Assembly (NCBI GenBank): GCA_963666735.1
Contig: OY762926.1
Span: 2,336,001 to 2,400,000, forward strand
DNA: 64,000 nt
Direction of reading: 5' to 3'
Source of the DNA: Gemmatimonadota bacterium
GTDB lineage: Bacteria > Gemmatimonadota > Gemmatimonadetes > Palauibacterales > Palauibacteraceae
Shown: piece after piece, positions 4,645 through 7,595 of the stretch
Layout of the letters: each line of letters begins with the position of its first letter
Numbering within the stretch: the first letter of the stretch is position 1
Position numbers and translations under genes: made by a program
Notes under the pieces: generated by a model
What the model saw: only the letters and a program-made list of their open reading frames with translations
What the model was told of the DNA's origin: nothing
The model's database searches: none

Positions 4645-4750
4645 TGTACAGGCTCCAGCTGATGACCGAGGTCGCATAAACCGGGATCGGGACCACCGTG
4701 GCATAGTCCGAACCGCTCCCGGCACACGCAAGACGCGTCCGTACACGCGC

Positions 4751-6264
4751 TGTCGTACCAAAGTAGAAATGTCCCCCCTTAGCCAAGTAGAAATGTCCTC
4801 TTACGGTCCATGTTCGGTCAACGGCGGAACGGGATCCGGGAGAGGAGCGGATGGACTTGAGTCTGAGGGAGCGGGATCGCATCTCGGTGCTGAGACAGGT
4901 GAGCGAGGGAGTGCTGACGGTCGCTGCGGGAGCGGAGCGGATCGGCGTGACTCGGCGGCATTTTCGCCGGTTGCGCCGGAAGTTCGAGGCCGAAGGCGAC
5001 GCGGCGGCGGTTCACGGACTGCGGGGGCGGCGGTCGAACCGGGCGTTGCGCGCGGAAGATCGGGAGCGGGCGCTGGAGGTCGCGAGGGACCCGCTGTACC
5101 GGGACTTCGGGCCGACGCTGCTTGCGGAACACCTGGAAAGACGCTTCGGGCTGCGTCTGAGCGCGGAGACGCTGCGGTGCTGGATGCTGGAGGCCGGGCT
5201 GTGGGAGCGTCGCCGCAAGCGCGCGAAGCACCGCCGCCGGCGTCCGAGGCGGGCGGCGCTGGGCGAGCTGGGGCAGTGGGACAGCTCGGTGCACCCGTGG
5301 CTGGAGGAGCGGGCGGCGGGAGGACAGGTGCTGATCTCGATCCACGACGACGCGACGAGCCGACTGATGATGGCCCGCTTCGCGGCGCGCGACGACGGGG
5401 CGGAGAACCGGCGGGCGATCATCGGCTACCTTCGCCGCCACGGCCGCCCGGTGGCCGTGTACACCGACCACGCCGGTCACTTCGGGCAGTGGCTCTCGAA
5501 GAAGGAGGAGCGCACGGACACGATCATCGCCCGGGGACTGGGCGAGTTGGGGGTCGAGGTGATCCTCGCGGGTTCCCCGCAGGCCAAGGGCAGGGTCGAG
5601 CGGAGCTTCGGCACCGCGCAGGACCGGCTGGTCAGGGAGATGCGGGTGGAGGGGGTCGCCACGCTCGAGGCGGCCAACCGCTTCCTCCAGCACTACTGGG
5701 TTCCGTTCTGGAACGAACGCTTCGCCGTGGAGCCCGCCGATCCCCGCGACGCGCACCGCCCGCTCCCGGACGGCGTGGACCTCGAGGCGCTCTTCGCCGA
5801 GACGGAGAGGCGCGTCGTGGCCCGCGACTTCACGATCCGCTTCCGGAACCGCCACTTGCAGATCCCGGAGAGGGAGGCCGCCGGCATCGCCCCCGGCGAC
5901 GAGATCGTCGTCGAGCGCCGCCTCGACGGCGAGGTCCGCTTCCGCTTCGGCGAGCGCTACCTGGAGCTCGAACCCGTATGCCGAGCCCCCGCCGCCTCCC
6001 CCGGCGACGCGCCCGTCAAGCCGGCGAAGCCGAGGCCCGCGCCCCCGAAGCCGGCTCCGGACCACCCATGGCGCAAGCACTTCCAAGCCAGTGCCCAGCA
6101 GGCCATCGCGCGTCGCGACCTCCGCCGCGAGCGAGAAGCGATATCCAACGAGAAGGAACCGCCCCGCTCCCCCGAACCGGCCCGGGAACAGGGCAGAACC
6201 GAACCGCCGGGGGAGGACATTTCTACTTTGGGCTAACCCCGGACATTTCTACTTTGGTTTGACA
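4751..6264 (+). mobile_element. Insertion sequence, IS1202 family (ISNCY-annotated; ISTde1-like subgroup by TSD length)
   Basis: Ends TGTCGTACCAAAGTAGAAATGTCC…GGACATTTCTACTTTGGTTTGACA; each end has two copies of AAGTAGAAATGTCC; 17-bp direct repeat CGCGTCCGTACACGCGC at 4734-4750 and 6265-6281. Confidence 0.93.
4851..6236 (+). CDS. DDE transposase of IS1202/ISNCY family
   Basis: N-terminal HTH, DFGPTL motif, QWDSS / YTDH / KGRVER DDE motifs, C-terminal PAPDHPWR motif; uninterrupted 461 aa. Confidence 0.92.
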   Translation: MDLSLRERDRISVLRQVSEGVLTVAAGAERIGVTRRHFRRLRRKFEAEGDAAAVHGLRGRRSNRALRAEDRERALEVARDPLYRDFGPTLLAEHLERRFGLRLSAETLRCWMLEAGLWERRRKRAKHRRRRPRRAALGELGQWDSSVHPWLEERAAGGQVLISIHDDATSRLMMARFAARDDGAENRRAIIGYLRRHGRPVAVYTDHAGHFGQWLSKKEERTDTIIARGLGELGVEVILAGSPQAKGRVERSFGTAQDRLVREMRVEGVATLEAANRFLQHYWVPFWNERFAVEPADPRDAHRPLPDGVDLEALFAETERRVVARDFTIRFRNRHLQIPEREAAGIAPGDEIVVERRLDGEVRFRFGERYLELEPVCRAPAASPGDAPVKPAKPRPAPPKPAPDHPWRKHFQASAQQAIARRDLRREREAISNEKEPPRSPEPAREQGRTEPPGEDISTLG

Positions 6265-6395
6265 CGCGTCCGTACACGCGCCCTGGCCGCCCCTGGCTGT
6301 CGCGCGGCCCCCCGGGGCGATAGCGTTGCCGGACAGCGAACGGCAGCGGCGTTCGCGGGCACACACCAAAGGGAAAGCGAGACAGGGAGATGCGG

Positions 6396-7067
6396 ATGAT
6401 GGACGCGCGTTATCTCCGGCTATTCACGGCGGGGGCCCTCGTGGCGGTCGGGTCGGCCGGCTGCGCACCCGAGGGAGACACGGAAGATGTCGACGTCTCC
6501 GAGGCGCCGGTCGAAGAAGCGGCTCAGGTGGTGCTCGGTCCGGTGGACGGACACGACCTGCCCCCGGCGGACCTCGAGCGCGTACTCGCCGGCAGCCCCG
6601 CCCCCGACTTCACCGCCCTTTCGAGCACCGGCGAGCCGATCACGCTCTCCGACTACCGCGGAGAGAAGAACGTCATCCTCTTCTTCTACCGCGGCCACTG
6701 GTGACCGTACTGCGCAAAGCAGCTCGGAGAGCTGCGAGATTTCATGACGCCCGAACAGCGCGAACGGACCGAACTCCTGGCGATCGCCCCGGACAGCCCC
6801 GAGGACATCGGGCTCATGGTCGACCGTGTCCTCGAGGACTACGACTACGCGCTCGACTTCCCGCTCCTGTCCGATGACGGCTCCGCGATCACCCACCGCT
6901 ACGGACTCCTGAACGAGGAGGACGGGCGCGGACGCCAGATCCCGCACCCCACGACCTACGTCATCGACATGGACGGGACGGTGCGCTGGAGCTTCACCGA
7001 AGTGGACTACCGCATCCGCCCGGAGCACGCCGACATCCTGGCCGCACTCGAAGCCCTGGAGCCTTAG
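6396..7067 (+). CDS. Lipoprotein peroxiredoxin-like (AhpC/TSA) protein with in-frame TGA; probable selenoprotein (U-x-x-C)
   Basis: ORFs 6390-6704 and 6744-7067 share a frame; read-through gives …APDFT…ILFFYRGHW-TGA(6702-6704)-PYCAKQLGEL…PTTYVID; lipobox GSAGC; hairpin after TGA. Confidence 0.88.
6719..6735 (+). promoter_or_regulatory. Putative bacterial SECIS stem-loop
   Basis: GCAGCTC-GGA-GAGCTGC perfect 7-bp stem with G-containing loop about 22 nt 3' of the UGA. Confidence 0.75.
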
Positions 7068-7595
7068 GTGCCTCTCGCGGCAACCTGGGCGGTTGTCGTG
7101 CTTATCTGCCCACTTCCTATTTGGGCCCAGGAGACTCCCGAAGCCGTGAGAGTAGATACGCTCACTGGCGGACGAATCGTTGTGTCGAATCCTTCCTCCG
7201 CGGGGGGTGGACACACGATCGAAGGCTGGAGGGTGACCGAGGAACTCCGAATCACATATGTCGTGCGTTTGTCCATGTCGACTGACTACAACGTGCTGGC
7301 GGGCGATACGCTTTTCCTTGAAAGGAGGAAGGTCGAGTTGGACGTGTCGCCGGAAGGGTGGTTGTGGGCGAGACGAGAGGATCAGGGCGACGGTTCGGCA
7401 TGGGATCTTTTCGACAACTGCGGCGCTTATCGCGGCGAAGCCATCACGCCGCTCTCGCTCGCCTCGGTCCGGATCGGTTGGGGCGGCGTGGTACACGGCG
7501 TGGTCTCGGATGCGCTGGATGTTGACTACGTTGTGCGGTTGCGTGTCGATAAGCCGGACGGTTCTGTAACCGCAGCCGCAACCTGCCCCTTCTGA
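7068..7595 (+). CDS. Short, probably internally deleted member of the 6-bladed beta-propeller surface-protein family
   Basis: Has N-terminal (VDTL…GRIVVSNP…WRVTEELRI) and C-terminal (WDLFD…G…DALDVDYVVRLR) motifs like the paralogs at 46.5-55 kb but only 175 aa; lower GC than flanks. Confidence 0.5.
   Translation: MPLAATWAVVVLICPLPIWAQETPEAVRVDTLTGGRIVVSNPSSAGGGHTIEGWRVTEELRITYVVRLSMSTDYNVLAGDTLFLERRKVELDVSPEGWLWARREDQGDGSAWDLFDNCGAYRGEAITPLSLASVRIGWGGVVHGVVSDALDVDYVVRLRVDKPDGSVTAAATCPF

What the first reader, a model, noticed from the sequence alone, without database searches (positions are those of the whole stretch)
6396..7067. Hidden selenoprotein: exported peroxiredoxin-like lipoprotein with U-x-x-C and SECIS-like hairpin
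Seen: two ORFs in one frame are joined by TGA (6702-6704) exactly where AhpC/TSA-like proteins have the first Cys of FYRGxWCPYC. A perfect hairpin GCAGCTC-GGA-GAGCTGC follows with its loop about 22 nt downstream, and the N-terminus has a lipobox (GSAGC). Established: bacterial Sec insertion uses UGA plus an immediately 3' stem-loop with a G in the apical loop, and Prx-like UxxC selenoproteins are known. Inference: a membrane-tethered extracytoplasmic Sec redoxin that standard pipelines would split or call a pseudogene.
Basis: partly seen in the sequence, partly recalled or inferred. Interest (0 to 1): 0.8.

Follow-up and report, generated by a model that had tools for sequence, protein, structure and literature searches.

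The report
Selenocysteine redox lipoprotein gene, Gemmatimonadota
The apparent stop codon in the middle of this gene almost certainly encodes selenocysteine at the active site of a membrane-anchored redox protein; it is a well-supported example of an already known kind of selenoprotein that gene-calling software cuts in two.

Summary
Confirmed. Window 6396-7067 (+) is one 223-codon gene with TGA 6702-6704 in a U-P-Y-C motif of an AhpC/TSA-fold protein. The genome, a close relative of Ca. Palauibacter (Gemmatimonadota), has selA, selB, selD and tRNA-Sec. Of 96 matches in 401 phylum genomes, 91 carry a TGA, all in selA genomes. The four full-length Cys forms, one clade, lie in genomes where selA was not found and lack the GG loop. 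The hairpin is unremarkable by folding energy. It is real by conservation: 97% of cells paired, three covarying pairs, stem codons 95-98% fixed against 61% elsewhere. The lipobox Cys is kept in 24 of 24 genus loci. The peroxiredoxin catalytic Pro, Thr and Arg are absent, so it probably works as a DsbD-fed envelope disulfide reductase; that function is inferred. It belongs to the known 'Prx-like thiol:disulfide oxidoreductase' UxxC selenoproteins, and exported Sec lipoproteins are already in print. This scan reported the same family before on other genomes (e1-707210, e1-4568424). New member of a known kind; interest 0.27.

The parts
6384..6389 (+). Shine-Dalgarno-like AGGGAG, 6 nt before ATG 6396
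   Evidence: Sequence; function inferred
6396..7067 (+). Complete CDS, 223 aa with Sec103, ending in TAG
   Evidence: orthologues 62-100% identical in 24 genus genomes, each with 1 TGA
6396..6464 (+). Predicted lipoprotein signal: basic n-region, hydrophobic h-region, lipobox GSAG-C, Cys23 at 6462-6464
   Evidence: Cys after a hydrophobic stretch in 24 of 24 genus loci although the flanking residues vary; simple heuristic, no SignalP run
6465..6533 (+). Acidic, length-variable tether (residues 24-46)
   Evidence: Linker of 6-33 residues in the lipobox-bearing loci
6534..6587 (+). Subfamily-specific conserved N-terminal extension (LGPxDG...DLxRV, residues 47-64)
   Evidence: Gly48, Pro49, Asp51 and Arg62 invariant in 49 of 49 rows of alignment A2
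6591..6989 (+). AhpC/TSA (PF00578) thioredoxin-fold domain, residues 66-198
   Evidence: Pfam E 9.6e-31; model pLDDT 91 matches BCP/AhpE at Z about 20, rmsd about 2 A
6702..6704 (+). In-frame TGA read as Sec103, first position of the UxxC motif
   Evidence: TGA in 91 of 96 phylum matches; TGC in the 4 full-length matches from genomes without selA
6711..6713 (+). Cys106, second position of UxxC (resolving Cys, inferred)
   Evidence: Invariant in 49 of 49 rows
6719..6735 (+). Bacterial SECIS hairpin: 7-bp stem, GGA loop at 6726-6728, 21 nt after UGA; encodes QLGEL
   Evidence: Covariation and synonymous constraint; meets the four published bSECIS criteria
6945..6950 (+). His184-Pro185; Pro185 occupies the position of the Prx catalytic Arg (thioredoxin-type cis-Pro position, recalled)
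   Evidence: Alignment to AhpE; both invariant in 49 of 49 rows

Best explanation
One gene encodes a selenoprotein of the 'Prx-like thiol:disulfide oxidoreductase' (PF00578, UxxC) kind. SelB with Sec-tRNA binds the GG-loop hairpin 21 nt downstream of UGA103 and inserts Sec (machinery and hairpin shown by sequence; insertion inferred from the established bacterial mechanism). The preprotein is exported and lipidated at Cys23, leaving a thioredoxin-fold domain on an acidic tether outside the cytoplasm (signal shown by conservation; processing inferred). The Sec103 selenolate most likely attacks a disulfide or sulfenic acid on an envelope substrate, Cys106 resolves the mixed bond, and DsbD or CcdA re-reduces the Se-S bond. 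This catalytic role is inferred, about 0.6 likely given that the gene is a selenoprotein; the substrate is unknown.
For: Machinery: selA, selB and selD over curated cut-offs, SelD itself with 1 TGA, tRNA-Sec with TCA anticodon. Eight other in-frame-TGA candidates in the genome fall in known Sec-type families: SelD, FdhA, two OsmC-like, two AhpD/CMD-like, two more AhpC/TSA. Codon: 24 of 24 genus matches and 91 of 96 phylum matches hold a TGA. All 91 genomes are on the selA list, and none of the 4 TGC genomes is. Hairpin: 97.0% of 301 cells paired against 89.6% shuffled, 20 cells with double changes in 3 pairs, slid controls 28-56% paired. Stem codons 95-98% fixed against a mean of 61% at 68 other conserved columns, while the loop's third base is free; Arg after the stem is CGN opposite G in 14 of 14 rows and the rare AGR opposite U in 8 of 8. 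Reductase role: Prx Pro, Thr and Arg replaced; dsbD lies divergently next to all 4 Cys-form genes and a TlpA-like gene follows in 5 loci; the genome has a full DsbD and a CcdA.
Against: No protein-level evidence of Sec or lipidation. The hairpin's folding energy is ordinary, and 8 of 60 TGA loci miss my strict 6-bp GG-loop rule. The four Cys/selA-negative genomes are one clade, so the Cys switch and the dsbD linkage are each one event; no dsbD lies within the 1.5-3 kb flanks of any TGA locus tested. selA is common in the phylum anyway (322 of 401). The tRNA-Sec search also missed G402, which has selA and the TGA form. The lipobox has Ser at -3, not the usual Leu/Val/Ile (recalled consensus). 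In this strain an IS sits 114 bp upstream of the start and may alter expression. The best structural matches are true peroxiredoxins, not TlpA/ResA.
Confidence: 0.92

Rival explanations
1. It is a selenoprotein, but works as an envelope peroxidase: Sec103 reduces H2O2 or organic peroxides directly, as Sec does in glutathione peroxidases, with invariant Arg99 and His184 standing in for the missing Prx residues.
For: Closest folds are AhpE and BCP peroxiredoxins (Z about 20). Arg99 and His184 are invariant in 49 of 49 rows. Selenolates react fast with peroxides (established knowledge).
Against: PxxxTxxC/U and the catalytic Arg are absent (motif requirement in PMC13188914). Caulobacter PrxL, another exported Prx-like protein lacking those residues, showed no peroxidase activity (PMC3322552; a different CDD family). 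The genome has a separate exported TxxU peroxiredoxin candidate.
Confidence: 0.25
2. TGA is a true stop: a pseudogene, or two small genes (a 102-aa lipopeptide and a C-terminal piece starting at Met 6744).
For: Gene callers do report the halves separately. TGA is the commonest stop here, 1203 of 1798 long gene-like ORFs. An ATG lies 13 codons after the TGA.
Against: The TGA sits at one column down to about 46% identity with intact frames on both sides. The Met at +14 is Leu in most distant orthologues. A stop would not need a covarying hairpin. Cys replaces it where selA is missing. The C-terminal piece has no complete active site.
Confidence: 0.02
3. TGA is read as Trp or by leaky suppression rather than as Sec.
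For: One database homologue, P0002, reads YW-W-LYC at this column, which could be a TGA=W translation or a real Trp.
Against: TGA is the main stop codon in this genome, ARAGORN lists one tRNA-Trp, with anticodon CCA, and natural substitutions at this column are Cys.
Confidence: 0.02

Closest known systems
'Prx-like thiol:disulfide oxidoreductase' selenoproteins (PF00578, UxxC/UxxU; PMC13188914 Table 1, example WP_010940744.1; 'Prx-like protein' UXXC of PMC1088965)
   Same: PF00578 domain, distant homology to Prx, thioredoxin-like UxxC in place of TxxU, UGA followed by a bacterial SECIS.
   Different: This subfamily has an export signal (lipoprotein in this genus; cleavable or membrane-anchor types elsewhere) and a conserved LGPxDG extension. 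I could not compare it with the published reference sequence. The passages read do not mention export for this family.
AhpE (PDB 1XVW) and BCP/PrxQ peroxiredoxins (PDB 3HJP)
   Same: Same fold, Z about 20, rmsd 1.9-2.0 A over about 150 residues, 21-29% identity; Cys106 aligns with the peroxidatic Cys.
   Different: Pro of PxxxTxxC is Arg99, Thr is Sec103, the catalytic Arg is Pro185; exported and Sec-containing.
TlpA/ResA/CcmG envelope thiol-disulfide reductases, and Caulobacter PrxL reduced by ScsB (PMC3322552)
   Same: Exported thioredoxin fold with an N-terminal anchor, a two-residue redox motif and probable DsbD-family electron supply.
   Different: ResA model scores 49.5 bits against a cut-off of 170; fold is nearer Prx than ResA. 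PrxL is CDD cd02969 with two distant Cys, not an adjacent UxxC.
Exported Sec proteins SaoB, SaoX and SaoC (10.1101/2022.07.06.499078)
   Same: Predicted selenoproteins with signal or lipoprotein signal peptides; SaoC has a 7-bp stem with a GGU loop, like this hairpin.
   Different: Unrelated folds (substrate-binding proteins) in an anaerobe operon.

Membership tests
Bacterial selenoprotein gene | selA, selB, selD and tRNA-Sec in the same genome | tested here: met
   all over curated cut-offs; anticodon TCA
Bacterial selenoprotein gene | In-frame UGA aligned with Cys of homologues | tested here: met
   TGC in L090-L093; Cys in P0004, P0007, P0008
Bacterial selenoprotein gene | bSECIS consensus: 3-9 nt loop with G in first two positions, 4-16 bp stem, 16-37 nt spacing, MFE <= -7.5 kcal/mol | tested here: met
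   Criteria from PMC13188914; loop GGA, 7 bp, 21 nt, -11.5 kcal/mol. bSECISearch itself was not available.
Bacterial selenoprotein gene | Hairpin conserved as structure | tested here: met
Bacterial selenoprotein gene | Selenium found in the protein | not testable with these tools
   Needs 75Se labelling or mass spectrometry
Prx-like thiol:disulfide oxidoreductase (UxxC) | PF00578 domain with UxxC rather than TxxU | tested here: met
   definition in PMC1088965 and PMC13188914
Prx-like thiol:disulfide oxidoreductase (UxxC) | Orthology to the published reference sequence WP_010940744.1, or CDD cd02970 assignment | not tested
   Reference sequence and CDD were not at hand
Peroxiredoxin (Prx) proper | PxxxTxxC/U motif | tested here: not met
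   RGHW-U-PY-C aligns with PLAF-T-GI-C of AhpE
Peroxiredoxin (Prx) proper | Catalytic Arg (requirement recalled; AhpE R116) | tested here: not met
   Pro185 aligns with it, invariant in 49 of 49 rows
TlpA/ResA/CcmG | Family HMM over cut-off | tested here: not met
   NF002854 ResA 49.5 bits, cut-off 170; none of the 10 NCBIfam hits passes its cut-off
Bacterial lipoprotein | Basic n-region, hydrophobic h-region, lipobox ending in a conserved Cys | tested here: met
   24 of 24 genus loci; 45 of 64 rows overall by a loose pattern. No SignalP.
Bacterial lipoprotein | Lipidation of Cys23 | not testable with these tools
   Needs globomycin or palmitate labelling

The most novel reading that the evidence does not exclude
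The LGPxDG subfamily is a distinct, uncharacterised envelope selenoenzyme. It keeps the Prx fold but rebuilds the active site around Sec103, Arg99 and His184 for its own chemistry, as a Sec peroxidase or a reductase of a specific envelope substrate. With the exported TxxU Sec-peroxiredoxin beside ccdA-tlpA it would form a selenium-dependent envelope antioxidant pathway across Gemmatimonadota, including sponge symbionts.
Probability: 0.2. Interest if true: 0.55.

Novelty: new member of a known kind. Interest (0 to 1): 0.27.

Why it matters
It corrects an annotation error repeated across a phylum: about a quarter of sampled Gemmatimonadota genomes (96 of 401) carry this gene, and databases hold it mostly as halves. 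It is also a clean natural example of a SECIS written inside coding sequence: the hairpin fixes synonymous codons, selects rare Arg codons, and its GG loop is lost once Sec reverts to Cys. It gives a testable candidate for selenium-based redox defence in the cell envelope. It does not show a new recoding mechanism or a new protein class.

Tried and rejected
Folding energy as evidence for the hairpin: not significant against shuffles. Candidates 1944584, 2596347, 163697, 2417798 and 2711165 were inspected and dropped as gene ends, adjacent genes or broken genes. Word-based homologue search found only 2 full-length proteins at E<=1e-20, as expected if the gene is usually split. Gene neighbourhood in the genus is a S9 peptidase, an SDR and an LVIVD protein and gave no functional clue. 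Promoter scan found no sigma-70-like site. tRNA-Sec search over five relatives found none, including the selA-positive control, so it does not discriminate. No result from the protein-language-model atlas was obtained, so look-alikes there are untested. No complex prediction was run.

Full report
Observation. Window 6396-7067 (+) reads as 102 codons, TGA at 6702-6704, 120 codons and TAG. Read with TGA as Sec it gives one 223-aa protein with FYRGHW-U-PYC and an AhpC/TSA domain at residues 66-198 (E 9.6e-31). The hairpin GCAGCTC-GGA-GAGCTGC is at 6719-6735, its loop 21 nt after the TGA. GSAGC ends at Cys23. The hairpin's energy (-11.5 kcal/mol) is not unusual for this 68% GC sequence: z -0.75 to +0.45 over five windows, and one window folded otherwise. 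The codon is not an assembly error: a contig of run X2 matches 6238-7200 with no difference, one of run X7 matches 6264-7067 with 4 differences and 1 gap, none listed at the TGA, and an RNA-library contig of a relative (X18) bridges it with no change listed there (4 of 24 listed runs laid; contigs only, transcription not shown).

Host and machinery. The nearest named relatives (77-97% identity) are mostly Ca. Palauibacter, Gemmatimonadota. The genome holds selA, selB and selD above their curated cut-offs, SelD with its own TGA, and a tRNA-Sec with anticodon TCA. A screen of 49254 TGAs kept 193. From these and the check lines I picked eight more plausible Sec genes: SelD, FdhA, two OsmC-like, two AhpD/CMD-like, a second UxxC AhpC/TSA protein and a TxxU peroxiredoxin. 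Five of these eight, like the target, have a stem of at least 6 bp with a GG-starting loop at +16 to +25. The background is 25 of 1202 TGA gene ends and 30 of 2321 Cys codons. I set this rule after seeing the genes, so it is descriptive; the two OsmC-like hairpins lie a little further out.

The codon across relatives. Among 41 relatives, 24 matched, all in the genus, all with one TGA at this column. Among 401 phylum genomes, 96 matched at E<=1e-25: 91 with a TGA (two with a further stop in the match), 4 full-length without a stop, and 1 covering only the C-terminal half. I opened 60 distinct TGA loci and 4 no-stop loci in all; each has TGA or TGC at the same column; the other matches were not opened. 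All 91 TGA genomes are among the 322 of 401 with selA; none of the four TGC genomes (97-99% complete) is. The tally of 322 includes the unpublished genome G191; no other claim rests on it. Caveats: selA is common in the phylum, kin are not independent, the four Cys forms are one clade (100/100), and a tRNA-Sec search over five genomes also missed the selA-positive G402. With a midpoint root the Cys clade lies among Sec forms, which suggests one Sec-to-Cys reversion; I did not test the root.

The hairpin is a conserved structure. On 43 distinct 45-nt sequences from TGA loci, 97.0% of 301 cells pair (shuffled 89.6%, 0 of 500 as high; slid controls 28-56%). Three pairs show double changes: the outer pair is GC in 23, UA in 15, AU in 1, CG in 1, UG in 1 and unpaired in 2, and two inner pairs change once each. 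RNAalifold finds the same stem unprompted. By eye on the tree the outer pair changes state at least four times. In 45 Sec rows the four stem codons are 95-98% fixed, against a mean of 61% at 68 other conserved columns (1 of 68 reaches 95%), while the third loop base is free. The Arg after the stem is CGN opposite G in 14 of 14 rows and AGR opposite U in 8 of 8, although AGR makes only 51 of 631 Arg codons elsewhere. The strict rule holds in 52 of 60 TGA loci and 0 of 4 Cys loci; the eight misses have a mismatch in the stem or a GUG loop. The element meets all four published bSECIS criteria (PMC13188914, passages).

Export. A Cys after a hydrophobic stretch is kept in 24 of 24 genus loci while the neighbouring residues and the tether length vary. 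Over 64 rows (one duplicate included; L096 and L097 dropped for lack of the anchor motifs), 45 have a lipobox-like Cys and 19 a hydrophobic leader without one. Export thus looks general and the lipid anchor lineage-dependent. This is a simple pattern test, not SignalP; lipidation is inferred.

How it most likely works. The model of residues 44-223 (pLDDT 91) matches BCP and AhpE peroxiredoxins best (Z about 20). Yet against AhpE the Pro of PxxxTxxC is Arg99, the Thr is Sec103 and the catalytic Arg is Pro185; these residues and His184 are invariant in 49 rows. It is therefore not a peroxiredoxin by the defining motif (PMC13188914). Sec in the first position of an xxC motif with a Pro opposite is the thioredoxin arrangement (established knowledge), so I infer a reductase: Sec attacks, Cys106 resolves, a DsbD-family protein recycles. 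Context fits but is thin. dsbD lies divergently beside all four Cys-form genes, one lineage; a TlpA-like gene follows in five loci; selD lies about 2.5 kb away in four TGA loci. No dsbD was found in the flanks of TGA loci, but this genome has a full DsbD and a CcdA elsewhere. The precedent is Caulobacter PrxL, an exported Prx-like protein kept reduced by ScsB with no detectable peroxidase activity (PMC3322552, passages). I put reductase at about 0.6 and Sec peroxidase at about 0.25. In this strain an IS lies 114 bp upstream of the start, absent from four close relatives compared, so expression here may differ.

Comparison with what is known. Prx-like UXXC selenoproteins were reported in 2005 (22 sequences, PMC1088965, passages), counted in genomes in 2006 (PMC1794560, passages) and are listed as high-confidence predictions in 2026 (PMC13188914). 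Exported and lipoprotein selenoproteins are in print (10.1101/2022.07.06.499078, passages; its supplements were not seen). A search for 'Gemmatimonadota' with 'selenocysteine' gave 5 papers, none on this by their listings; none of the 15 papers listed holds 'Palauibacter'; one search listed no paper on this subfamily. BSepDB's input table lists Ca. Palauibacter genomes (PMC13326102, passages and one supplement, cut when stored), so the gene may already be catalogued there; I could not see the database. Protein collections hold the gene mostly as halves ending at FYRG[HY]W. Earlier notes of this scan describe the same family on other genomes; I had formed my reading before seeing them and do not count them as support.

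Verdict. It is a new member of a known kind, with unusually clean evidence for its SECIS and an unknown substrate. Confidence in Sec recoding and the overall anatomy 0.92; interest 0.27.

Noticed in passing
window 4733-6281: An insertion sequence (4751-6263, 461-aa transposase at 4851-6236, terminal inverted repeats) flanked by a perfect 18-bp direct repeat (4733-4750 and 6264-6281), inserted between the divergent S9 peptidase and the selenoprotein gene. Six near-full copies in the genome, 91-100% identical. Long direct repeats recall the IS1202 family (recalled, not tested).
   Followed up: partly
G000:C1:2845385-2846446 (-) and L118: A second exported Sec candidate: a TxxU peroxiredoxin-type protein with a cleavable-looking signal peptide, lying convergent with a ccdA and a TlpA-like gene. 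It resembles the ScsB-TlpA-PprX pathway of Caulobacter. Its hairpin lacks the GG loop.
   Followed up: partly
G000:C1 positions 538007+, 1222810-, 2753753-, 2509707+, 2723743-, 3945438+, 484818+: Seven further in-frame TGA candidates: SelD, two OsmC-like, a second UxxC AhpC/TSA protein, FdhA, two AhpD/CMD-like. With the target and the TxxU protein, at least nine probable selenoproteins.
   Followed up: partly
phylum sample: selA was found in 322 of 401 Gemmatimonadota genomes searched, so Sec use appears to be the rule in this phylum.
   Followed up: no
L068, L070, L071, L072: selD lies about 2.5 kb downstream of the orthologue in these four loci.
   Followed up: partly
P0002: A database homologue named 'peroxiredoxin' has Trp at the Sec column, possibly a TGA translated as Trp by the gene caller.
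   Followed up: no
window 7068-7595 (+): A 175-aa ORF with no Pfam hit starts right after the stop codon; the region is absent from the four close relatives compared.
   Followed up: no
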